The position numbers and the translations under genes are program-made. From the NCBI RefSeq assembly GCF_003334765.1, contig NZ_QOWT01000058.1: 10,459 nucleotides of DNA. One strand, 5' to 3'. This document shows positions 1 through 7,120 of the stretch, piece after piece. The DNA comes from Escherichia coli (GTDB lineage: Bacteria; Pseudomonadota; Gammaproteobacteria; Enterobacterales; Enterobacteriaceae). Under the pieces are notes generated by a model. That model did no database searches and had not been told where the DNA came from. It saw only the letters and a list, made by a program, of their open reading frames with translations. Every line of letters begins with the position of its first letter. Within the stretch, counting starts at the first letter, position 1.

Positions 1-77
1 ACCGAGAAAGACACTGAAGTTCAAAACACCGAAAGAGATAATTGAAAGGGGTGTTGCATTGACAGATTGAATCTACA
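1..77 (+). mobile_element. insI: IS30 right end, truncated by the window edge: the last 22 codons of the IS30 transposase plus the 26-bp terminal inverted repeat
   Basis: Frame 2 (2-70) reads PRKTLKFKTPKEIIERGVALTD*, which matches the IS30 transposase C-terminus as I remember it. Positions 52-77 (tgttgcattgacagattgaatctaca) are the reverse complement of the remembered IS30 left IR TGTAGATTCAATTGGTCAACGCAACA at about 23/26 positions. All three frames hit stops before or at the junction. Confidence 0.8.
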
Positions 78-1016
78 ACAGCGTATTTTGCACAGGAGTC
101 GCTGAAAAATACGCGTTAATCGAACAATGGCGACAACAATTTCCCATTGAAGCGATGTGTCAGGTATTTGGTGTATCCAGGAGCGGTTATTACAACTGGG
201 TACAGCATGAACCCTCAGACAGAAAACAAAGTGATGAGCGGCTAAAACTGGAGATTAAGGTGGCACATATCCGCACTCGCGAAACATATGGAACCCGGCG
301 GCTCCAGACGGAGCTGGCAGAGAATGGCATCATCGTTGGTCGTGACCGACTGGCACGTCTTCGTAAGGAGCTAAGGCTACGCTGTAAGCAGAAACGCAAG
401 TTCAGAGCGACTACGAACTCGAACCACAATCTGCCAGTTGCGCCAAATCTGCTGAACCAGACGTTCGCTCCTACAGCACCAAATCAGGTCTGGGTGGCGG
501 ACCTGACGTATGTTGCCACACAGGAGGGATGGTTGTACCTCGCTGGCATCAAAGATGTTTATACGTGCGAAATTGTCGGCTACGCCATGGGAGAGCGCAT
601 GACAAAAGAGCTGACAGGTAAAGCCCTGTTTATGGCGCTCAGGAGCCAGCGCCCACCTGCCGGGCTAATCCACCACTCTGATCGAGGTTCACAGTACTGC
701 GCATACGATTACCGGGTCATACAGGAGCAGTTTGGTCTGAAAACATCAATGTCGCGTAAAGGTAACTGTTACGACAACGCTCCGATGGAAAGCTTCTGGG
801 GAACGCTGAAAAATGAGAGCCTGAGCCACTATCGTTTTAATAACCGGGATGAAGCCATCTCAGTAATACGGGAATACATTGAGATTTTCTACAATCGTCA
901 GCGTCGTCACTCTCGTCTGGGGAATATCTCCCCGGCAGCCTTCAGGGAAAAATATCATCAGATGGCTGCTTAAAAAAAGAACAAATGGTAGTGTCCGCTA
1001 TTGCCAGTACACCTCA
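78..1016 (+). mobile_element. IS3-family (IS600-like) insertion sequence, 5'-truncated by the IS30 insertion. It retains the orfA tail, all of orfB and the right end.
   Basis: The orfA-type tail ...AYFAQESLKNTR* ends at 117-119, but that frame is closed upstream of ~72 and no A-AAA-AAG slippery site is present. The orfB frame is open from 71 and reads ...KYALIEQWRQQFPIEAMCQVFGVSRSGYYNW. The right end gtgtccgctattgccagtaca(cctca) has the GCAATAG-GGACAC core and terminal CA typical of IS3-group IRs. The exact end is either 1011 or 1016. Confidence 0.8.
155..973 (+). CDS. IS3-family OrfB transposase (rve/DDE integrase core). In an intact element it would be expressed as an OrfAB frameshift fusion.
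   Basis: 272-aa ORF with DDE-region motifs WVADLTY, HHSDRGSQY and CYDNAPMESFWGTLK. The reading frame continues upstream of the ATG as far as the IS30 junction. Confidence 0.95.
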   Translation: MCQVFGVSRSGYYNWVQHEPSDRKQSDERLKLEIKVAHIRTRETYGTRRLQTELAENGIIVGRDRLARLRKELRLRCKQKRKFRATTNSNHNLPVAPNLLNQTFAPTAPNQVWVADLTYVATQEGWLYLAGIKDVYTCEIVGYAMGERMTKELTGKALFMALRSQRPPAGLIHHSDRGSQYCAYDYRVIQEQFGLKTSMSRKGNCYDNAPMESFWGTLKNESLSHYRFNNRDEAISVIREYIEIFYNRQRRHSRLGNISPAAFREKYHQMAA

Positions 1017-1447
1017 CGCTTCCAGTCTTCGCGGTCGTTGTCGATAACTTCTTTTTTTGCCCAGCGATGGATGCTGCCGTCAATGTTTCCGGCATCCACA
1101 TCACTAGGCCAGAGAGCGTAGGCCAGTTCGTCATCCAGTGTTTTCCATGTCTGCTTGTATTCGCGATGAATGGCAGCAATGACCGGGCTGATTTTTCCTG
1201 TTGAATTTTCAGTGTACTGTTGATTGGCTCTGGCGCGGGCGAGATCAACAACAGACGTGTATTTTCCGGTTTCCTTGCGTTCACCTTCGCGACGTTTTTT
1301 CCAGATGCGCATCTCTGCCTGAATTTCGGGCCATTTAGCACCAGGAATACATTTATGCTTAACCCACCCAATGGCGTGCAACTTAAGCTCCGGATACGGG
1401 TTATTCCCCTCTGAACAGGCGCGTAAGGACTGGCAAAACGCCCGCAA
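998..1447 (-). CDS. Hypothetical protein whose 3' end is cut by the IS3-family element. The last ~5 codons and the stop are IS-derived. The start is uncertain.
   Basis: This 149-codon ORF has a balanced, charged composition (…WPEIQAEMRIWKKRREGERKETGKYTSVVDLARARANQQY…DREDWKR|EVYWQ*), unlike the overlapping alternative frames. Its stop (998-1000) lies inside the IS terminal repeat. The first start in the ORF track is a TTG at 1447, preceded by GAGAG; an internal ATG sits at 1312. I do not recognise the family. Confidence 0.4.
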   Translation of the reverse strand: MRAFCQSLRACSEGNNPYPELKLHAIGWVKHKCIPGAKWPEIQAEMRIWKKRREGERKETGKYTSVVDLARARANQQYTENSTGKISPVIAAIHREYKQTWKTLDDELAYALWPSDVDAGNIDGSIHRWAKKEVIDNDREDWKREVYWQ

Positions 1448-1637
1448 AAAACTCTCGAGGGCAAAGGTGAAGAAACCTGCTGTGGTTGATCCGGACCTTA
1501 TCTGGTCATCACCTGACGGAGAAATACGTCGCTACGACAGTCGCCTAAACATAATCTGTCGCGAGTGCCGGAAGAGCGAAGTTATGCAGCGCATACTGGC
1601 TTTCTATCAGGGTAATTTTCAGGACGTGGCGCAGTGA
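1371..1637 (+). CDS. Ren-like protein; only the C-terminal part resembles lambda Ren. The start is uncertain (ATG 1371, or GTG 1467 preceded by GAGGG).
   Basis: The C-terminus ...NIICRECRKSEVMQRILAFYQG aligns with the remembered lambda Ren C-terminus ...NLVFKECRQSAAMKRVLAVYG at about 10/21 identities plus conservative changes. The stop overlaps the next gene's start as GTGA (1634-1637). The N-terminal 77 nt overlap the minus-strand ORF. Confidence 0.5.
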   Translation: MACNLSSGYGLFPSEQARKDWQNARKKLSRAKVKKPAVVDPDLIWSSPDGEIRRYDSRLNIICRECRKSEVMQRILAFYQGNFQDVAQ

Positions 1638-2123
1638 GTGCACCGGCAACCATTCTTGATATGTGCTGTGGCAGCCGCATGTTCTGGTTCGATAAGTCTG
1701 ACGAACGGGCGATATTCAGCGATATCAGAAAAGAAGGATACACATTACGCAATGGGAGACGCTTGATTATCAGCCCTGACATTATCGCAGATTTTCGTGC
1801 ATTATCATTTGCAGACGCATCTTTTTCGATGGTTGTATTAGACCCTCCGCATCTTGAGAGTGTTGGTGATAACGCCTGGATGGGAAAGAAATATGGACGG
1901 CTGAATAAAGATGCCTGGCGTGATGATTCGCGACAGAGATTTAAAGAAGCCTTTCGGGTGTTGAGGCCGCACGGCGTTCTGATTTTTTAATGGAATGAAA
2001 CGCAAATACCGGTAAGCCAGATTCTGGCACTGACAGACAGAAAACCTGTTATCTGTCAACGAACAGGGAAAAAACGATAAAACCCACTGGATTATTTTTA
2101 TGAAAGAGGCATCCAGTGAGTAG
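1634..2123 (+). pseudogene. SAM-dependent DNA methyltransferase (N6-adenine type, DPPH motif IV), interrupted by an in-frame TAA and probably by a later frameshift
   Basis: The motif I-like segment is ILDMCCGSRMFWFD and motif IV is VVLDPPH. TAA at 1988-1990 falls in ...HGVLIF*WNETQIPVSQILALTDRKPVICQRTGKKR*. At the A6 run (2069-2074), one fewer A would read on as ...GKNDKTHWIIFMKEASSE*, stopping at 2121-2123. Confidence 0.6.
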
Positions 2124-2252
2124 ATTCGTAAGGCTACAGATACGTATATCTGAATAATTAAATTCAGTTCTGTAAATAAAATTTAATCCTTAACCGGATG
2201 GATTTCTGCACCCTCAGAACATCAGGAGGCCGCCCGAAAGGGCGGTAGTGAA

Positions 2253-2435
2253 ATGCGAAAGTTCAAAATTATTATTGAAACGGGAATAGCTGGTGGAGAT
2301 TTTGAGGATGTATTCGAAGTGGACGATGACGCAACACCTGAGGAAATTCATGACGGAGCATAAGAAATTTTCTTTAACTACTGCAATTACTCATACCACG
2401 AAATAAAAGACGATGAGGAAGAACAAAGTGGCTGA
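2253..2435 (+). pseudogene. Small acidic phage ORF of 60 codons with an in-frame TAA at codon 37
   Basis: Reads MRKFKIIIETGIAGGDFEDVFEVDDDATPEEIHDGA*EIFFNYCNYSYHEIKDDEEEQSG*. The TAA is at 2361-2363. The 3' end overlaps the next ORF's start (GTGGCTGA). Confidence 0.45.
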
Positions 2436-2604
2436 TTTTTGTTCAGCTAAATATAACATCAGTTTTGAAGAGCGGGATGAACTATTAATGGACTATGGTG
2501 AGTTACGCGGTGGAAGTGCTGCTGATGTCGAATCCTAGCGTGATGACTATGAAGCGGGAAAAACTCCGGTCGAAGCATATTGTGATGAGTGGGGCGATGA
2601 ATGA
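2428..2604 (+). pseudogene. Small phage ORF with an in-frame TAG. The start is GTG 2428 or ATG 2413.
   Basis: Reads VADFCSAKYNISFEERDELLMDYGELRGGSAADVES*RDDYEAGKTPVEAYCDEWGDE*. The TAG is at 2536-2538. The stop overlaps the next start as ATGA (2601-2604). Confidence 0.4.
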
Positions 2605-2888
2605 GCGAGATTAATTATCAGGAAGGGCATGAAACGGCGGGGCAAGCAAAACCAGTGGCATGGCGATATCGCTACGTGAAAAAAGGCGTTACGGACTTTC
2701 AGGGGAAGTAGTGGTCTGGTGACTGGAAATATGTACCGAAAAAAGAGGATTGTAACGACAGGCCGAACTATCAAATTCAGGCCTTATTCACTGCCTCACC
2801 AGTCCCAGTTACATCAGAAGAACTGGTTAAAGCTGTGCACTTTTATGAACAACTAAAACGCGAAAATCCACCAACATCCGGCAACTAG
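2601..2888 (+). pseudogene. Small phage ORF of 95 codons with an in-frame TAG at codon 37
   Basis: Reads MSEINYQEGHETAGQAKPVAWRYRYVKKGVTDFQGK*WSGDWKYVPKKEDCNDRPNYQIQALFTASPVPVTSEELVKAVHFYEQLKRENPPTSGN*. The TAG is at 2709-2711. Confidence 0.45.
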
Positions 2889-3142
2889 ATTAATGGATTA
2901 ACTATGTCGGTTAAACGACCAGCCAACTGAAAAAGCGGAAACCTGATTACAGGTTGCCAGATAAGGCAATGAGCTACCTGGCGCGGAACGGACTGATAAG
3001 TATGGGGAATGTTTTACGATGAACCTTTAGACTAAAGAGTTTGTAACGCTATGTAAGTGATTTTTTCTGGTTTAGATATTTATATGTCCGGCCAAATTGA
3101 GGTGTGTTTAAATGTAATTGCACATTGATTGTAGGAGGAATA

Positions 3143-3322
3143 ATGAAAAACGCATTGCAGTTTTTGTTTGTTGCGTTCTGGTTGTTCGCATCATGTATGC
3201 CCATCATCTTCACAGCAAGGTATATGGAAAAAGTTGATGTTTTGATATTAATATTTGGATATATAAATGCCCTTTTTTTAGGGGTGTTCATGGCGGTCAT
3301 GTGCATTGAATACTGGCGGTAA
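3143..3322 (+). CDS. Small two-transmembrane-helix protein (59 aa), a moron-like accessory gene
   Basis: AGGAGG at 3133-3138 lies 4 nt before ATG 3143. The product is MKNALQFLFVAFWLFASCMPIIFTARYMEKVDVLILIFGYINALFLGVFMAVMCIEYWR, with two ~20-residue hydrophobic spans separated by a charged loop. The gene sits in a visibly AT-rich patch (~3040-3330). The ATG at 3104 from the ORF track has no SD. Confidence 0.6.
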   Translation: MKNALQFLFVAFWLFASCMPIIFTARYMEKVDVLILIFGYINALFLGVFMAVMCIEYWR

Positions 3323-3382
3323 ATACAGCGAACTCCATTGGTTTAGTTGGATATTTACTGTGCTGGACAAAAACGGTTTGCG

Positions 3383-3596
3383 GGGAAATCTTAGTTAAGT
3401 AGAATGACTGCGGGTGCTTGAGGCTATCTGCCTCGGGCATGGACACCAACGGCAGATAGAGAAAAGCCCCAGTTAACATTACGCGTCCTGCAAGACGCTT
3501 AACATTAATCTGAGGCCAATTTCATGCTAGACACATGTAGGTTAGCCTCTTACGTGCCGAAAGGCACGGAGAAGCAGGCTATTGTTAACACCAAGC
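3383..3596 (+). other. Hairpin-dense non-coding segment, a possible structured RNA or remnant, ending at the IS junction
   Basis: No ORF looks credible in any frame. There is a 9-bp stem at 3424-3432/3451-3459. A 5-bp stem at 3483-3487/3494-3498 is flanked by direct TTAACATTA copies (3473-3481 and 3499-3507). A 37-nt composite hairpin at 3544-3580 carries a GAAA tetraloop (AGCCT-CTT-a-CGTGCC GAAA GGCACG-gag-AAG-c-AGGCT). Confidence 0.3.
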
Positions 3597-5212
3597 TGTA
3601 ATGTCCCCTTTGAACCATTCTAAAATGTCCCCAGACAATTCTCTGGGGGATTTTTCATGATCAAAGAGACTGTTACGATGAGTCATAAGGAACTCCACCG
3701 ACTTCAGATTATTCAGGAACAAGCTGCGGCACGCATTGGCATTTCTATTCGGCAGGTTAAACGTCTGGTGCAACGGTATAGAAATGAAGGGCCTTCTGGT
3801 CTGGTTTCCCACCGACGTGGAAAGCGTCCTAATAATTCCTTTTCTACTGAATTCAGAGCAACAGTAATTTCACTCCTCAAAGGCCGTTACGCTGATTTTG
3901 GACCTACGTTTGCGTGCGAAAAATTGCGCGAGATACACGGTTTATCTTTATCCGTTGAAACTCTCAGAAAGTGGATGATAGAAGAGGGGTTATGGCGTGA
4001 ACGCCGTCGTAAAATTGCCCGTATATATCAACGCCGCATGCGACGACCATCTTACGGTGAACTGATCCAGATTGATGGCTCACCTCATGACTGGTTTGAA
4101 AATCGAGGCCCCAGATGTACACTGATCGTTTTCATTGATGATGCCACCAGTGCGTTGATGGCGTTGCGTTTTGTGCCTGCTGAAACAACCCGGGCTTACA
4201 TGGAAACCCTCCGGGGTTACCTTAATGATCATGGCGTACCGCTCGCTCTCTACTCTGATAGACACAGTATATTCAGGGTAAATAACCCAGAGCGGGAAGG
4301 TGAGCTGACCCAGTTCACTCGTGCGATAAAGACACTGGGCATCGAGCCAATCCATGCCAACAGCCCGCAGGCAAAAGGGCGGGTAGAGCGCGCCAATCAG
4401 ACACTACAGGACAGGCTGGTCAAAGAAATGCGGCTTCAGAATATCAGTGATATTGAAACAGCAAATGCATGGTTGCCGACCTTTATTGAAGCCTATAACA
4501 ACCGGTTCGCTACGTCGCCTCGTACTACTGATAATGCTCATCTTGATGTGCACCATTCTGAAGAGGAACTGGGTTATATCTTCAGCCTACAGGCGAAGCG
4601 CGTTCTGTCTAAAAATCTCACTTTCCAGTACAAAAGCAGTGCGTTTCAGGTACGCAGTGAGGGCCGGGGATATCGACTTAGGCATTCGGTTGTTACTGTA
4701 TGCGAGAACTTTGACGGTGAAATTAACGTTCTGTATGACGGGAAAGCGCTGGGCTGGGAAAAGTATGTTGATGGCCCGGAGCCTATACCACTGGATGATG
4801 AAAAGAGTGTCCATGAACGAGTGGATAATGCCCGTATTGATTTACGCTCAAAATACTATGTTAAACCTAAAGCTGACCATCCCTGGCTTACGCGCCGAAC
4901 GCAAAGTCATCAGCAAGTTAAGCCCCCGAAGTTACCTAAAAAGAAGCCTGATCCCGATAAAAAAGATTGAAACCAAGATCGATTCGGTTGAGTGCATATC
5001 CATTCATAGGGTAGATTCTTAAGTCGCGTTTCTGGTGTTCATTTTCGGGTGGTTTGTTACTTGTTTTACCGGGGATATGCCAGAAACGCGCTGAGTCAGT
5101 CTGGGCGGTGCGCGTAATGAGGCGTTATGGTAAATAGCCTATGCTAATGTCCGCTAAGAGCAAGAAGCGGAAGTTGGCAGTTTTGTGGACTGTCCCCACA
5201 AAAGTGACTACA
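3597..5212 (+). mobile_element. ISNCY-family (IS1202-group-like) insertion sequence; the boundaries are approximate
   Basis: It carries a single long DDE transposase ORF. The candidate ends are TGT... (3597) and ...ACA (5212), giving 1616 bp, which matches what I recall for the IS1202 group (TGT ends, 1.4-1.7 kb). The terminal repeats are only imperfect: TGTAATGTCCCCTTTG versus reverse-complement TGTAGTCACTTTTG, with a 2-nt gap. I found no flanking direct repeat. Confidence 0.5.
3657..4970 (+). CDS. ISNCY/IS1202-like transposase with an N-terminal HTH and an rve-type DDE core
   Basis: 437-aa ORF. The N-terminus MSHKELHRLQIIQ...GISIRQVKRLVQRYRNEGPSGLVSHRRGKRPNN is typical of proteins annotated as ISNCY family transposase. 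The DDE-region motifs are LIQIDGSPHDWF, ALYSDRHSIF and GRVERANQTLQDRL. GGGGGA lies 6 nt before ATG 3657; an alternative ATG is at 3678. Confidence 0.9.
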   Translation: MIKETVTMSHKELHRLQIIQEQAAARIGISIRQVKRLVQRYRNEGPSGLVSHRRGKRPNNSFSTEFRATVISLLKGRYADFGPTFACEKLREIHGLSLSVETLRKWMIEEGLWRERRRKIARIYQRRMRRPSYGELIQIDGSPHDWFENRGPRCTLIVFIDDATSALMALRFVPAETTRAYMETLRGYLNDHGVPLALYSDRHSIFRVNNPEREGELTQFTRAIKTLGIEPIHANSPQAKGRVERANQTLQDRLVKEMRLQNISDIETANAWLPTFIEAYNNRFATSPRTTDNAHLDVHHSEEELGYIFSLQAKRVLSKNLTFQYKSSAFQVRSEGRGYRLRHSVVTVCENFDGEINVLYDGKALGWEKYVDGPEPIPLDDEKSVHERVDNARIDLRSKYYVKPKADHPWLTRRTQSHQQVKPPKLPKKKPDPDKKD

Positions 5213-5368
5213 GAAATAGTTGCAATTCATAATTGATCATGGGTTGTCAGTTAAACTCGTGGCGATTTAAATAGACTAATTGGGAGTGCGTCCATTACTT
5301 ATATCTTGTAATGTTAACTATCAGAAATGATACAAAGATAATATGTCTTTAAAGAAAAGGCTGATGGC

Positions 5369-5392
5369 GAAAAGTGGCCCGATGAGGGCCAC
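5369..5392 (-). terminator. Rho-independent terminator downstream of flxA
   Basis: On the minus strand it reads GTGGCCC-tcatc-GGGCCAC followed by TTTTCGCC, starting 15 nt after the flxA stop. Confidence 0.6.
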
Positions 5393-5406
5393 AATACGGC
5401 TGTCAC

Positions 5407-5739
5407 TTAGACGTAAATATCAATGGTGCCAGCGGTATTTGTATCGTCTTTTTTCTCTTCTTTTTTATCAGGCTGAACTGTCGCGTCTTCATTCTTTTTC
5501 TCTGCCTGCTGCCTTAACAACTGCTCCAGTTGAGCCCAGAGGCTTTCAATTTGCTTCTGTACCAATGCAGCCATTTCTTTTTTCTGCTGTGTCGTCATCC
5601 CCTCTTCCGATGAGATTTTCCCAAGCTTTTCAGTCAGCACCTGAATTTGTCTTGTGATTTTGGCTATTTCTGATGTTCCTTCCGGGGCGGAGTTGTTTGA
5701 AATAACGGTTGAGGTATTTCCCTGAATTGTGACAGACAT
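5407..5739 (-). CDS. flxA: FlxA, a Qin prophage protein of the FliA regulon
   Basis: The 110-aa ORF MSVTIQGNTSTVISNNSAPEGTSEIAKITRQIQVLTEKLGK... matches K-12 FlxA as I remember it. It is preceded by a near-consensus sigma28 promoter. Confidence 0.9.
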   Translation of the reverse strand: MSVTIQGNTSTVISNNSAPEGTSEIAKITRQIQVLTEKLGKISSEEGMTTQQKKEMAALVQKQIESLWAQLEQLLRQQAEKKNEDATVQPDKKEEKKDDTNTAGTIDIYV

Positions 5740-5762
5740 AGATTTCTCCTTTTAAAAAAGCA

Positions 5763-5789
5763 CTATCGGCATGCACAAAAAAATCTTTA
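5763..5789 (-). promoter_or_regulatory. Sigma28 (FliA) promoter of flxA
   Basis: The minus strand reads TAAAGATT (5789-5782), then 11 nt, then GCCGATAG (5770-5763). The consensus is TAAAGTTT-N11-GCCGATAA. Confidence 0.8.
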
Positions 5790-5870
5790 ATCGTATTTCT
5801 TGTGTCATTAATTGTTTGATGTTCAGATTGTTTTCCTCGCGGGCTGGCGCGCCTCAGAAAGTAAAGCTTG

Positions 5871-5898
5871 TTGACAGGGGTAAACGTTCGGCAATAAT
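5871..5898 (+). promoter_or_regulatory. Candidate strong sigma70 promoter on the plus strand, in the flxA-ydfV intergenic region and reading antisense into ydfV, toward relBE
   Basis: TTGACA (5871-5876), a 16-nt spacer, then AATAAT (5893-5898). A 10-bp palindrome CCGCATGCGG follows at 5905-5914. Confidence 0.4.
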
Positions 5899-5941
5899 TT
5901 TCTGCCGCATGCGGGTGTTGCATAAAACGTGTTACGTTCCT

Positions 5942-6247
5942 TTATCGACAGGTCAGGTCACCGCTCACCCGCCGACGAGAAAGCAACACTGACATGCTAA
6001 AGCAAAAAATAGATGAATAAGTTGAGTTGTGCATATGTAGCCTGACCGTCACAAAGTATATGGTGTCTGTACCAGTAAGATGATGGCCGGACTCTTTAAA
6101 AACGAGCTGACCTGCACAATACAGGATGGACTTAGCAATGGCTGCTCCTGGCACAAAGCGGACAGTGATCACCGTTCTTACGACTACTTTCTGACTTCCT
6201 TCGTGACTTGCCCTAAGCATGTTGTAGTGCGATACTTGTAATGACAT
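5942..6247 (-). CDS. ydfV: YdfV, an uncharacterised Qin prophage ORF. Coding status is doubtful.
   Basis: The 101-aa ORF matches the length and position of K-12 ydfV as I remember it. No recognisable SD precedes the ATG, the start codon lies inside the relBE operator, and the composition is unremarkable. Confidence 0.4.
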   Translation of the reverse strand: MSLQVSHYNMLRASHEGSQKVVVRTVITVRFVPGAAIAKSILYCAGQLVFKESGHHLTGTDTIYFVTVRLHMHNSTYSSIFCFSMSVLLSRRRVSGDLTCR

Positions 6248-6259
6248 TTGTAATTACAA
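6208..6259 (+). promoter_or_regulatory. relBE promoter and relO operator
   Basis: TTGCCC (6208-6213), a 17-nt spacer, then GATACT (6231-6236). TTGTAAT repeats sit at 6236-6242 and 6248-6254, and the palindrome TTGTAATTACAA at 6248-6259 lies just upstream of the relB SD. Confidence 0.7.
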
Positions 6260-6271
6260 GAGGTGTAAGAC

Positions 6272-6511
6272 ATGGGTAGCATTAACCTGCGTATTGACGA
6301 TGAACTTAAAGCGCGTTCTTACGCCGCGCTTGAAAAAATGGGTGTAACTCCTTCTGAAGCGCTTCGTCTCATGCTCGAGTATATCGCTGACAATGAACGC
6401 TTGCCGTTCAAACAGACACTCCTGAGTGATGAAGATGCTGAACTTGTGGAGATAGTGAAAGAACGGCTTCGTAATCCTAAGCCAGTACGTGTGACGCTGG
6501 ATGAACTCTGA
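6272..6511 (+). CDS. relB: RelB antitoxin (type II TA)
   Basis: The 79-aa sequence MGSINLRIDDELKARSYAALEKMGVTPSEALRLMLEYIADNERLPFKQ... is recognised as K-12 RelB. Its stop overlaps the relE ATG (TGATG). Confidence 0.97.
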   Translation: MGSINLRIDDELKARSYAALEKMGVTPSEALRLMLEYIADNERLPFKQTLLSDEDAELVEIVKERLRNPKPVRVTLDEL

Positions 6512-6798
6512 TGGCGTATTTTCTGGATTTTGACGAGCGGGCACTAAAGGAATGGCGAAAGCTGGGCTCGACGGTACGTGAACAGTTGAAAAAGAAGCTG
6601 GTTGAAGTACTTGAGTCACCCCGGATTGAAGCAAACAAGCTCCGTGGTATGCCTGATTGTTACAAGATTAAGCTCCGGTCTTCAGGCTATCGCCTTGTAT
6701 ACCAGGTTATAGACGAGAAAGTTGTCGTTTTCGTGATTTCTGTTGGGAAAAGAGAACGCTCGGAAGTATATAGCGAGGCGGTCAAACGCATTCTCTGA
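6511..6798 (+). CDS. relE: RelE, a ribosome-dependent mRNA interferase toxin
   Basis: The 95-aa sequence MAYFLDFDERALKEWRKLGSTVREQLKKKLVEVLESPRIEANKLRGMPDCYKIKLRSSGYRLVYQVIDEKVVVFVISVGKRERSEVYSEAVKRIL is recognised as K-12 RelE. Confidence 0.97.
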   Translation: MAYFLDFDERALKEWRKLGSTVREQLKKKLVEVLESPRIEANKLRGMPDCYKIKLRSSGYRLVYQVIDEKVVVFVISVGKRERSEVYSEAVKRIL

Positions 6799-6869
6799 AC
6801 CAAAGCATGACATCTCTGTTTCGCACCGAAGGTGACACTTCTGCTTTGCGTTGACAGGAGAAGCAGGCT

Positions 6870-7025
6870 ATGAAGCAGCAAAAGGCGATGTTAATCGCCC
6901 TGATCGTCATCTGTTTAACCGTCATAGTGACGGCACTGGTAACGAGGAAAGACCTCTGCGAGGTACGAATCCGAACCGGCCAGACGGAGGTCGCTGTCTT
7001 CACAGCTTACGAACCTGAGGAGTAA
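6870..7025 (+). CDS. hokD: HokD (RelF), a Hok-family membrane toxin. It falls below the ORF-track length cutoff.
   Basis: Manual translation gives MKQQKAMLIALIVICLTVIVTALVTRKDLCEVRIRTGQTEVAVFTAYEPEE* (51 aa). GGAG lies upstream at 6856-6859. The hok-type context ggtgacacttctgctttgcgttgacaggagaagcaggctATG is present. Confidence 0.9.
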   Translation: MKQQKAMLIALIVICLTVIVTALVTRKDLCEVRIRTGQTEVAVFTAYEPEE

Positions 7026-7092
7026 GAGACCCGGCGGGGGAGAAATCCCTCGCCACCTCTGATGTGGCAGGCATCCTCAACGCACCCGCACT

Positions 7093-7120
7093 TAACCCGC
7101 TTCGGCGGGTTTTTGTTTTT
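7093..7120 (+). terminator. Rho-independent terminator ending the relBE-hokD transcript
   Basis: AACCCGC-ttcg-GCGGGTT followed by TTTTGTTTTTATTTT. Confidence 0.8.

What the first reader, a model, noticed from the sequence alone, without database searches (positions are those of the whole stretch)
3330..3596. Hairpin-dense non-coding segment between a small membrane-protein gene and an IS: a possible orphaned structured RNA
About 200-270 nt have no credible ORF on either strand but contain three strong local structures. The first is a 9-bp stem (3424-3432/3451-3459) with an 18-nt loop. The second is a 5-bp hairpin (3483-3498) bracketed by exact direct 9-mers TTAACATTA. The third is a 37-nt two-tier hairpin (3544-3580) with a GAAA tetraloop, an asymmetric internal loop and a single-nucleotide bulge. 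GAGGCTA (3420-3426) could also pair at long range with TAGCCTC (3543-3549). The segment ends exactly where the IS begins, so a downstream partner may have been cut off or displaced. Such a partner could be a reverse transcriptase of a retron-like unit, an intron-encoded protein, or a toxin/antitoxin partner. I cannot assign the segment to any RNA family from memory.
Basis: partly seen in the sequence, partly recalled or inferred. Interest (0 to 1): 0.6.

Follow-up and report, generated by a model that had tools for sequence, protein, structure and literature searches.

The report
Orphaned hokD toxin-mRNA leader with sok
The hairpin-rich stretch is the regulatory front half (mRNA leader plus antisense Sok gene) of the well-known hok/sok toxin-antitoxin system of E. 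coli, cut from its hokD toxin gene by a 3.3-kb relBE-carrying transposon that landed on the toxin's start codon.

Summary
Window 3412-3583 (+) matches Rfam RF01794 (sok/hok leader) over its full length: 104 bits against a gathering score of 59.

IS-free strains carry the same leader fused directly to hokD. In the window, homology to them stops at 3582, inside the hok ATG, and resumes at 6856. The 3,274 bp in between form an ISEsa1-like (IS1202-family) transposon. It has TGT-ended inverted repeats, a transposase, flxA, ydfV and relBE, and a 15-bp target duplication GGAGAAGCAGGCTAT (3568-3582 and 6857-6871).

The hokD ORF (6870-7025), its fbi element (7074-7087) and its terminator lie on the far side. 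So the segment is the orphaned promoter, tac, Sok-target, mok-start and hok-SD half of the hokD locus. It is most likely an inert relic, with a point change in the inferred Sok -35. True K-12 has deleted it.

There is no retron or intron.

Beyond the finding, surveys show this transposon family sits at the hok SD/start site in most copies and in many different hok loci. I found no paper describing that targeting.

The parts
3378..3405 (+). Inferred hok promoter: -35 TTGCGG (3378-3383), 16-nt spacer, -10 TAGAAT (3400-3405), about 7 nt before the leader start
   Evidence: Read from the sequence. Its position relative to the Rfam model start at 3412 fits. The consensus scan found no promoter at its threshold, so this is inference only.
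3412..3582 (+). hokD-type hok mRNA 5' leader. Contains the tac stem (3412-3419/3464-3470), helix 2 (3424-3432/3451-3459), the Sok-target stem-loop (3471-3487/3494-3511), the mok SD/dcb stem (3512-3516/3545-3549) and the hok-SD hairpin (about 3543-3581).
   Evidence: RF01794, 104.1 bits against a gathering score of 59, model positions 1-157 of 157. Covariation, helix map. 98.4% identical to the leader directly upstream of hokD in strain a15.
3524..3601 (+). Remnant of the mok-equivalent reading frame: 19 native codons, then read-through into the transposon end (25 aa in all)
   Evidence: ORF list. In a15 the same ATG opens a 70-codon ORF in frame with hokD.
3458..3532 (-). Predicted Sok-like antisense RNA of about 75 nt: a 9-nt single-stranded 5' tail complementary to the mok start region, a long stem-loop, and a U-rich tail
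   Evidence: Folds (-30.3 kcal/mol; z = -5.47 for the 82-nt version). The architecture matches the published Sok: a 64-nt RNA with a stem-loop and an 11-nt 5' tail (PMC1635323). The ends are inferred, not mapped.
3539..3567 (-). Inferred Sok promoter: -10 TAACCT (3544-3539), 17-nt spacer, -35 GTGCCT (3567-3562). The -35 reads TTGCCT in every leader sampled that is followed by an intact Hok ORF.
   Evidence: Sequence. The A-to-C change at 3567 is seen only in orphan copies among the 85 leaders sampled. Orphan copies with the ancestral A also exist. Promoter function is inferred by analogy with R1, which I recall from memory.
3568..3582 (.). Left copy of the 15-bp target-site duplication GGAGAAGCAGGCTAT (hok SD through the AT of the start codon)
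   Evidence: The single-copy empty site is L002 5176-5191.
3583..6856 (+). ISEsa1-like (IS1202-family) transposon, 3,274 bp. IRL 3583-3610; transposase 3657-4970 (437 aa, with a 9-aa deletion in the HTH); flxA 5407-5739 (-); ydfV 5942-6247 (-); relB 6272-6511; relE 6511-6798; IRR 6829-6856.
   Evidence: Inverted repeats match at 21 of 28 and both start TGT. NF033594, 456 bits. 92% identical to an intact 446-aa transposase. Gene annotation. The same IRL and IRR bound related elements elsewhere.
6857..6871 (.). Right copy of the 15-bp target-site duplication. It supplies the SD and the AT of the start codon for hokD.
6870..7025 (+). hokD (relF) toxin ORF, the displaced partner of the leader
   Evidence: PF01848, 82.9 bits. 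Annotated hokD, WP_000813254.1. Collinear with a15 hokD from 6856 onward.
7074..7087 (+). fbi-like element in the hokD 3' UTR, complementary to tac (3412-3423)
   Evidence: Duplex of -21.5 kcal/mol. It is the best partner of tac anywhere on the window's + strand; 15 of 1000 shuffles of the 3' UTR match it.
7096..7119 (+). Intrinsic terminator of the hokD transcript: CCCGC TTCG GCGGG followed by a T-run
   Evidence: Read from the sequence. Not scanned separately.

Best explanation

On the + strand it encodes the hok mRNA leader: the tac stem, the anti-SD (ucb), the Sok-target stem-loop, the mok SD and start codon, dcb, and a hairpin that occludes the hok SD. On the - strand it encodes a Sok-like antisense RNA of about 75 nt.

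A 3,274-bp ISEsa1-like (IS1202-family) transposon carrying relBE inserted at the hok SD/start codon and duplicated 15 bp. This left the leader and sok upstream. It placed the hokD ORF, its fbi element and its terminator downstream of relE, which created the relB-relE-hokD arrangement.

Shown here: the family identity, the breakpoints, the duplication, the inverted repeats, the empty site in other strains, and the tac/fbi complementarity.

Inferred: the orphan is now a non-toxic relic. Any transcript from the hok promoter would run about 240 nt and stop at the terminator-like hairpin at 3628-3649 inside the transposon. It could encode at most a 25-aa Mok stub. A Sok-like RNA may still be made from a promoter whose -35 has changed from TTGCCT to GTGCCT. 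Sok cannot regulate hokD any more, because its target (the mok translation-initiation region) was left behind.
For: - Rfam RF01794: full-length hit, 104 bits against a gathering score of 59, E = 1e-24. Intact homologues score 112-115 bits.
- Covariation on 57 distinct leaders supports the helices.
- Strains a15 and CFS3273 have the same leader directly followed by hokD, then rem and ydfU, in the same prophage backbone.
- Homology to a15 ends at 3582 and resumes at 6856, with a 15-bp duplication.
- The inverted repeats start TGT and match at 21 of 28. The transposase scores 456 bits on NF033594.
- The IS1202 family is described with 15-17-bp direct repeats, TGT ends and passenger genes in some members.
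- tac's best partner in the whole window lies in the hokD 3' UTR.
- The antisense strand folds into a 5' tail, stem-loop and U-tail like Sok.
Against: - No expression data, so both promoters are inferred. The simple consensus scan found none at its threshold.
- The covariation alignment was fitted to a model built from four of these sequences, and most of the sampled leaders are close hokD-type relatives.
- The 'relic' claim rests on only 3 substitutions in 191 nt relative to a15, so decay is slight. Some orphan copies keep the ancestral Sok -35, so residual function is not excluded.
- The Rfam entry is named 'sok antitoxin' but matches the hok-sense strand. I inferred the strand assignment because the model's terminal AUG aligns with the hok start codon.
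Confidence: 0.93

Rival explanations
1. The orphan is not inert. It persists as an antitoxin-only (anti-addiction) module. A still-expressed Sok-like RNA would neutralise hokD-type mRNAs brought in by incoming lambdoid phages or plasmids that carry the same Sok target. Alternatively, the leader RNA would act as a Sok sponge.
For: All Sok promoter elements and the Sok stem-loop and terminator lie left of the insertion and are intact apart from one -35 change. The leader differs from an intact one at only 3 of 191 positions. Many E. coli genomes carry several near-identical hokD-type leaders, up to 9 places per genome, so trans targets exist.
Against: The window's lineage has a change in the first base of the inferred Sok -35. 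That change is absent from all sampled leaders that are followed by an intact Hok ORF. K-12 deleted the whole segment without obvious consequence. High identity may simply reflect a recent origin. There are no expression data.
Confidence: 0.12
2. The segment is part of a retron (msr/msd), a group II intron or another reverse-transcriptase-associated RNA whose protein partner was removed by the IS. These were the reader's other options.
For: Only the dense local hairpins and the adjacency to a mobile element.
Against: No retron or intron family reaches even E = 1 on either strand of 3200-3750. The only other match is a spurious snoRNA at 23 bits against a gathering score of 70. No reverse-transcriptase ORF was listed. 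IS-free homologues show a Hok ORF as the downstream partner.
Confidence: 0.01
3. The stretch is the decayed interior of a protein-coding gene, or it belongs to the IS itself as structured IS-end sequence.
For: ATG 3524 opens a frame that in intact loci continues into hokD as a 70-codon ORF. Others have annotated that ORF as an 'ancestral 70-codon hokD'.
Against: Only 19 codons (3524-3580) are ever coding. Positions 3412-3523 are untranslated leader in all homologues and are conserved as RNA helices with compensatory changes. Homology with IS-free loci runs right up to 3582, so none of it belongs to the transposon.
Confidence: 0.03

Closest known systems
hok/sok of plasmid R1 and its family (Rfam RF01794 leader/sok; Pfam PF01848 Hok/Gef)
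   Same: Same leader architecture: tac stem, anti-SD, Sok-target stem-loop, mok SD/dcb stem, occluded hok SD, and an fbi element in the 3' UTR. The predicted antisense RNA has a single-stranded 5' tail plus a stem-loop. Scores exceed the family thresholds.
   Different: Here the locus is split: the leader and sok sit 3.27 kb away from hok and fbi. hokD-type leaders carry a 16-nt extra hairpin tip (3483-3498) in the Sok stem-loop, shown as an insertion relative to the Rfam consensus. Their mok-equivalent start is in frame with hok rather than overlapping it out of frame. The R1 frame relationship is from my memory.
Chromosomal hok loci of E. coli K-12 inactivated by IS elements or rearrangement (hokA, hokC, hokE, hokD; Pedersen and Gerdes 1999, as cited in PMC7232551)
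   Same: A chromosomal hok/sok locus disabled by a mobile element close to, but not inside, the hok coding sequence. This locus is the non-deleted form of the K-12 hokD 'rearrangement'.
   Different: In K-12 the leader is gone: a deletion runs from ydfX to within the transposase. The K-12 sequence therefore could not show what happened. The window preserves both junctions and the 15-bp duplication.
relBEF operon of the Qin prophage, and 'relBE integrated into hokD' (Ramisetty and Santhosh 2016, as cited in PMC6379469)
   Same: Same event: relBE arrived next to hokD and truncated a 70-codon ORF.
   Different: As cited, that work treats relBE as the integrating unit. Here the integrating unit is a bounded transposon (IRL, transposase, flxA, ydfV, relBE, IRR) with a target duplication, and the '70-codon ORF' is the mok-equivalent frame of a hok/sok leader. 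I could not read the 2016 paper itself.
IS1202 family. The ISTde1 subgroup gives 15-17-bp direct repeats. The ISAba32 subgroup targets XerCD/dif sites.
   Same: ISNCY/IS1202-type transposase, TGT-ended inverted repeats, a 15-16-bp duplication, passenger genes, and apparently oriented insertion at a fixed distance from a recognisable site.
   Different: The target is the hok SD/start region rather than a Xer site. ISEsa1 is catalogued as 1,609 bp with no detectable duplication, whereas these relatives are 1.9-7.7 kb with clear 15-16-bp repeats. I could not compare against the ISfinder sequence itself.

Membership tests
[quoted passage not shown] | Leader RNA matching the family covariance model (RF01794) at or above the gathering score | tested here: met
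   104.1 bits against 59, model positions 1-157 of 157, window 3412-3583 (+).
[quoted passage not shown] | Conserved helices supported by compensatory changes among homologues | tested here: met
   57 distinct leaders, 95.5% of cells paired, 20 pairs changed on both sides against 4.4 in shuffles (0 of 500). Helices 2, 4 and 7 covary; helix 5 is almost invariant (one G-U variant). The alignment was model-fitted.
[quoted passage not shown] | Hok/Gef toxin ORF (PF01848) immediately downstream of the leader, on the same transcript | tested here: not met
   The leader is followed at 3583 by the transposon IRL. hokD (82.9 bits on PF01848) lies at 6870-7025, behind relBE. Leaders in most other loci sampled are followed directly by a Hok ORF. 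The window therefore holds a disrupted member, not an intact one.
[quoted passage not shown] | mok (or equivalent) reading frame that starts in the leader and continues into or over hok | tested here: inconclusive
   The start codon at 3524 and the SD GAGG (3512-3515) are present, but the frame is cut after 19 codons. It is intact and in frame in a15.
[quoted passage not shown] | Antisense Sok RNA: own promoter, single-stranded 5' tail complementary to the mok translation-initiation region, stem-loop, terminator | tested here: inconclusive
   The structure is predicted as expected. The promoter hexamers are only inferred, the consensus scan found none, and the -35 carries an orphan-specific change. 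No expression data.
[quoted passage not shown] | fbi element at the mRNA 3' end complementary to tac at the 5' end | tested here: met
   3412-3423 pairs with 7074-7087 at -21.5 kcal/mol, the best partner in the window; 15 of 1000 shuffles match it. The two are now 3.6 kb apart.
IS1202 family (the inserted element) | ISNCY/IS1202-type DDE transposase with an N-terminal HTH | tested here: met
   NF033594, 456 bits against a cutoff of 250, plus HTH Pfam domains. Relatives are named 'IS1202-like element ISEsa1 family transposase'. The window copy lacks 9 aa in the HTH.
IS1202 family (the inserted element) | Imperfect terminal inverted repeats of about 24-28 bp that begin 5'-TGT | tested here: met
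   3583-3610 against the reverse complement of 6829-6856: 21 of 28 match, and both begin TGT. Family description.
IS1202 family (the inserted element) | Target duplication of a subgroup-typical length (5-6, 15-17 or 27-28 bp) | tested here: met
   15 bp here. Exact 15- or 16-bp repeats in 27 of 33 two-ended copies.
IS1202 family (the inserted element) | Simple IS of about 1.3-1.75 kb that carries only the transposase | tested here: not met
   3,274 bp with flxA, ydfV and relBE between the transposase and the IRR. Relatives measure 1.9-7.7 kb. Some family members are described with passenger genes, so this is a cargo-carrying variant.
Retron ncRNA or group II intron | Match to a retron or intron RNA model and an adjacent reverse transcriptase | tested here: not met
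   No such Rfam match at E up to 1 on 3200-3750. No reverse-transcriptase ORF in the ORF lists.

The most novel reading that the evidence does not exclude
The element that orphaned this leader belongs to a family of ISEsa1-like (IS1202-family) cargo transposons that insert site-specifically at the Shine-Dalgarno/start-codon region of hok toxin genes. Cargo includes relBE or a GNAT/DUF1778 pair, and metal-related genes.

Insertion makes a 15-16-bp duplication. The duplication rebuilds the hok ribosome-binding site behind the transposon's own outward-facing toxin-antitoxin operon and strands sok and the leader upstream. On this reading the classic relBEF operon of E. coli is a product of that targeting, and ISEsa1's catalogued 'no target duplication' may reflect mis-set ends.

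A further, weaker layer is that stranded Sok genes such as this one act as antitoxin-only protection against incoming hok loci.
Probability: 0.6. Interest if true: 0.6.

Novelty: already known. Interest (0 to 1): 0.35.

Why it matters
For the finding itself, this settles an unannotated 'mystery RNA' as a known family. RefSeq annotates nothing under it. It also shows concretely what the long-cited 'rearrangement' of hokD/relF was. The K-12 reference cannot show that, because K-12 deleted the leader.

It gives annotators a simple rule: an RF01794 hit with no Hok ORF behind it marks a split locus, so look for the ORF beyond the mobile element.

The by-product could matter more. If the hok start region is a dedicated landing site for a cargo transposon that brings its own type II toxin-antitoxin module, that would be a second target-specific lineage in the IS1202 family, after the Xer-site targeters. 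It would also be a mechanism by which one addiction module replaces the control of another. And it would explain why relBE travels with hok on many plasmids that also carry resistance genes.

Tried and rejected
- The consensus promoter scan of 3300-3700 found no sigma-70 site at its threshold. The promoters given are inferred from position and from analogy with R1.
- The permissive Rfam search gave only a spurious snoRNA (ceN48, 23 bits against 70) and a weak reverse-strand echo of RF01794 (18.9 bits). Both were rejected.
- The retron, intron, decayed-gene and IS-internal readings were rejected (see rivals).
GAGGC at 3420-3424 may still take part in the 5' metastable hairpin seen in the minimum-free-energy fold.
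- I looked for a transposase-proximal right end near 5190, as expected for a 1,609-bp ISEsa1. Nothing there resembled the IRR. This was by eye only.
- The 12-nt inverted match 3471-3482/5308-5319 was judged chance.
- Ramisetty and Santhosh 2016 could not be read, and Pedersen and Gerdes 1999 is not in the library. Both are cited second-hand.
- NCBIfam and Pfam gave nothing for the 59-aa upstream ORF, for YdfV, or for the 25-aa Mok stub.
- Literature searches for IS1202, ISNCY or ISEsa1 together with hok found no description of hok targeting. The library lacks most subscription journals, so absence is weak evidence.

Full report
**1. What is at 3330-3596**

A scan of the whole window against Rfam gave one match at gathering threshold: RF01794 ('sok antitoxin') at 3412-3583 on the + strand. 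It scored 104.1 bits against a gathering score of 59, and all 157 model positions aligned.

The model consensus ends in AUG. In the window those three positions align with ATT at 3581-3583. In IS-free homologues the first two of those bases are the AT of the hokD start codon. So the + strand is the sense strand of a hok toxin mRNA leader, and Sok would be made from the opposite strand. The published model says the same: Sok is a cis-encoded antisense RNA that blocks mok translation (PMC1635323).

**2. Are the hairpins more than chance?**

The leader folds at -64.5 kcal/mol (z = -4.66, 0 of 200 shuffles as good). The antisense strand 3455-3536 folds at -31.4 kcal/mol (z = -5.47).

I built a covariance model from four leaders and collected 85 leaders, 57 of them distinct, from prophage contigs, plasmids and genomes. 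Results:
- 95.5% of cells form standard pairs.
- 20 pairs change on both sides, against 4.4 in shuffles (0 of 500 reach the observed value).
- Slid controls pair at only 31-46%.

The alignment was fitted to the model and most sequences are hokD-type, so this supports the structure but is not independent proof. The Rfam score is independent.

Helices in window coordinates:

| Helix | Coordinates | Identity | Variation |
|---|---|---|---|
| 1 | 3412-3419 / 3464-3470 | tac stem | mostly invariant |
| 5 | 3512-3516 / 3545-3549 | GAGGC/GCCTC, the mok SD/dcb stem | almost invariant (one G-U variant) |

The element names follow PMC9841398.

The minimum-free-energy fold instead pairs 3414-3424 with 3430-3440. 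That resembles the published 'metastable' 5' hairpin, in which tac pairs with the sequence just downstream.

Hairpin 3 pairs CTCTT (3547-3551) with the hok SD region GGAG (3568-3571). That would occlude the hok ribosome-binding site. This last point is inference.

**3. What the partner is and where it went**

BLAST of 3330-3596 against complete E. coli genomes hit 4,324 of 5,426 genomes. Nothing is annotated under the 100% matches. At 86-98% identity the hits are followed by an annotated hokD, and homology always stops at query position 253, which is window 3582.

The window lies in a Qin-type cryptic prophage: dicA-dicC ... relB-relE-hokD-rem-ydfU. In strain a15 the same backbone runs leader, hokD, rem, ydfU with nothing in between.

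Pairwise alignment puts the left breakpoint at 3582 (L002 5191) and the right breakpoint at 6856 (L002 5176). So GGAGAAGCAGGCTAT is present once in a15 and twice in the window, at 3568-3582 and 6857-6871. The intervening 3,274 bp begin TGTTAACACC... and end ...GCGTTGACA. These are imperfect inverted repeats that match at 21 of 28 positions, and both start TGT.

The insert encodes:
- an ISNCY/IS1202-type transposase (NF033594, 456 bits). It is 92% identical to intact 446-aa relatives but lacks 9 aa in the N-terminal HTH;
- flxA and ydfV on the minus strand;
- relB and relE.

A 15-17-bp duplication, TGT ends and occasional passenger genes are described features of the IS1202 family (10.1101/2022.12.17.520857).

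Beyond the insert lie the hokD ORF (6870-7025; PF01848, 82.9 bits) and a 13-nt element at 7074-7087 complementary to tac. That element is the best duplex partner of 3412-3425 anywhere on the window's + strand (-21.5 kcal/mol; 15 of 1000 shuffles match it). It is followed by a terminator. So the two halves of one hok/sok locus are both in the window, separated by a transposon.

**4. How it most likely works now**

The published mechanism runs as follows:
- Full-length hok mRNA is locked by tac-fbi pairing.
- 3' processing lets tac pair with the anti-SD, which frees the mok SD.
- Hok translation is coupled to mok translation.
- Sok, which has a single-stranded 5' tail plus a stem-loop, binds the mok initiation region.
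- The duplex is cut by RNase III.

In the window the orphan keeps:
- an inferred hok promoter (TTGCGG, 16 nt, TAGAAT);
- the whole leader;
- the mok-equivalent start codon at 3524. In intact hokD-type loci it is in frame with hokD and gives a 70-codon ORF. This is evidently the '70-codon ancestral hokD' of Ramisetty and Santhosh, cited in PMC6379469;
- a predicted Sok-like RNA of about 75 nt, running from 3532 to 3458 on the - strand, with a 9-nt tail, a long hairpin and a U-tail.

It has lost the toxin ORF and the fbi element. A transcript from the hok promoter would enter the transposon and meet a terminator-like hairpin at 3628-3649. It can encode only a 25-aa stub.

hokD is now read from the relBE transcript. 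Co-transcription is documented in K-12 (PMC5120126). hokD uses the SD rebuilt by the duplication, and it lacks the Sok target.

I therefore read the segment as a non-toxic relic. One of its three differences from the a15 leader (3407, 3442, 3567) changes the inferred Sok -35 from TTGCCT to GTGCCT. Every sampled leader that is followed by an intact Hok ORF has the A. A few orphan copies in metagenomes still have it too, so the change arose after the insertion. Residual antitoxin-only function is not excluded (see rivals).

**5. Why it is unannotated and what was known**

True K-12 strains match the transposon only from window 4786 onward. In W3110, dicC-ydfX' abuts ydfW, which is merely the last 49 codons of the transposase. 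K-12 thus deleted the leader and most of the transposase.

That explains why hokD was described from K-12 as lacking its regulatory region through a 'rearrangement' (Pedersen and Gerdes 1999, cited in PMC7232551). The fact that relBE integrated next to hokD has been noted. I found no description of the bounded transposon, its duplication, or the surviving leader and sok, but I could not read the primary papers.

**6. Beyond the finding: the transposon appears to target hok**

The same IRL and IRR occur elsewhere with other cargo:
- a nickel-resistance ncr cluster on Klebsiella and Enterobacter plasmids;
- an IS110 element, cytochrome b561, a CDF efflux protein and relBE in a 6.1-kb copy;
- a GNAT/DUF1778 pair in place of relBE.

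Scanning one genome per species for the IRR tip gave 28 genuine ends:
- 17 are followed at once by a hok SD, ATG and Hok ORF, of at least eight different Hok sequences.
- One abuts the same 15-mer in the opposite orientation (L027).
- One abuts a hok SD remnant followed by a second related IRL (L045).
- 9 have non-hok flanks.

Scanning metagenomes for the IRL gave 83 usable junctions. Sixty have a hok-leader HMM hit that ends 0-9 nt from the IRL, and 12 more have the hok SD 15-mer only. So 72 of 83 are at hok sites and 11 are not.

Of 33 copies with both ends in hand, 27 have exact 15- or 16-bp repeats. Element lengths run from 3,273 to 7,694 bp. The locus-specific repeat sequences include GGAGAAGCAGGCTAT, GGAGAAAAAGGCTAT and GGAGAAGAAGGCCAT(G). 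Two copies at non-hok sites show decayed 15-bp repeats.

One copy duplicated GGAGATGTATGGGTCC. That is the hok SD followed by the end of an IS481-family element that had itself inserted in the hok SD. It suggests that recognition lies on the leader side rather than in the duplicated bases.

One contig has IRR, the 15-mer, then IRL: a tandem pair.

Redundancy among contigs and spread by recombination inflate the raw counts. Even so, at least ten distinct target sequences at one position relative to the hok ATG are hard to explain without site preference.

ISEsa1 is catalogued as 1,609 bp with no detectable duplication (PMC10132070). Xer-site targeting is reported only for another subgroup. No paper in the library links this family to hok.

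**7. Verdict**

The object is a disrupted member of a long-known family, so the finding itself is ordinary and scored low.

The most interesting result is a by-product: the cause of the orphaning looks like a hok-targeting cargo transposon, and the window preserves the intermediate that explains the origin of the relBEF operon.

Noticed in passing
window 3583-6856; L009 5053-9713; L016 about 663-6754; L010 9001-9028; L011-L048; L169-L255: ISEsa1-like (IS1202-family) cargo transposons sit at the hok SD/start codon in most copies surveyed: 19 of 28 IRR ends in species-representative genomes and 72 of 83 IRL ends in metagenomes. They have exact 15-16-bp duplications at many different hok loci, in either orientation, and sometimes in tandem. 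This looks like target-site specificity, and I found no paper describing it.
   Followed up: yes
L009 3941-5036; also L006 2314-2324, L172 and about 11 metagenome flanks: A separate IS481-family element of about 1.1 kb (NF033577, 235 bits) is inserted inside the same hok SD (GGAGA|TGTATGGGTCC...). The hok ribosome-binding site therefore seems to be a hotspot for at least two IS types. In L172 the ISEsa1-like element then duplicated the hybrid sequence.
   Followed up: partly
window 3657-4970 (ydfW = 4821-4970): The 437-aa transposase ORF is open and full length but lacks 9 aa (SLNRHITQE) in the N-terminal HTH compared with intact 446-aa relatives, so it is probably inactive. Copies 27 bp longer (3,301-bp elements) exist. 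The annotated gene 'ydfW' is just the last 49 codons of this transposase.
   Followed up: partly
window about 1-4785, compared with L256 2223-2536: E. coli K-12 (W3110 and others) has a deletion that joins truncated ydfX (ydaT-like) to window position 4786 inside the transposase. It removes the hokD leader and sok. The record labelled DH5alpha (NZ_CP026085.1, 4.83 Mb) keeps the full region, unlike the other K-12 records sampled.
   Followed up: partly
window 3628-3649: A terminator-like hairpin (TCCCCAGA...TCTGGGGG followed by ATTTTT) lies just upstream of the transposase ATG at 3657. Its 3' arm covers the likely transposase SD. It may shield the transposase from read-through coming from the hok promoter.
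   Followed up: no
window 5012-5176; L005 3001-3165: A 165-nt non-coding stretch just after the transposase stop is 89% conserved on plasmids. On pYLPM4a it sits next to IS26 and is followed by different cargo, a ydfV fragment, relBE and the IRR. It may be a conserved internal part of the transposon.
   Followed up: no
L010 8100-8845 and 9001-9046; L017; L031: Related elements carry a GNAT-family acetyltransferase/DUF1778 pair next to the IRR instead of relBE. The pair is oriented opposite to relBE and reads away from the adjacent Hok ORF. A two-gene toxin-antitoxin-like module next to the right end seems to be a recurrent feature.
   Followed up: no
Strain a15 has a different small hydrophobic ORF in the same place.
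   Followed up: no
window 3567: An A-to-C change specific to the orphan lineage alters the first base of the inferred Sok -35 and adds two base pairs to the hok-SD hairpin. Every sampled leader followed by an intact Hok ORF has A here.
   Followed up: partly
window 3483-3498 and homologues: hokD-type leaders carry a 16-nt extra hairpin tip, flanked by direct TTAACATTA repeats, inside the Sok stem-loop. The Rfam consensus lacks it. It would lengthen Sok from 64 to about 75 nt.
   Followed up: partly
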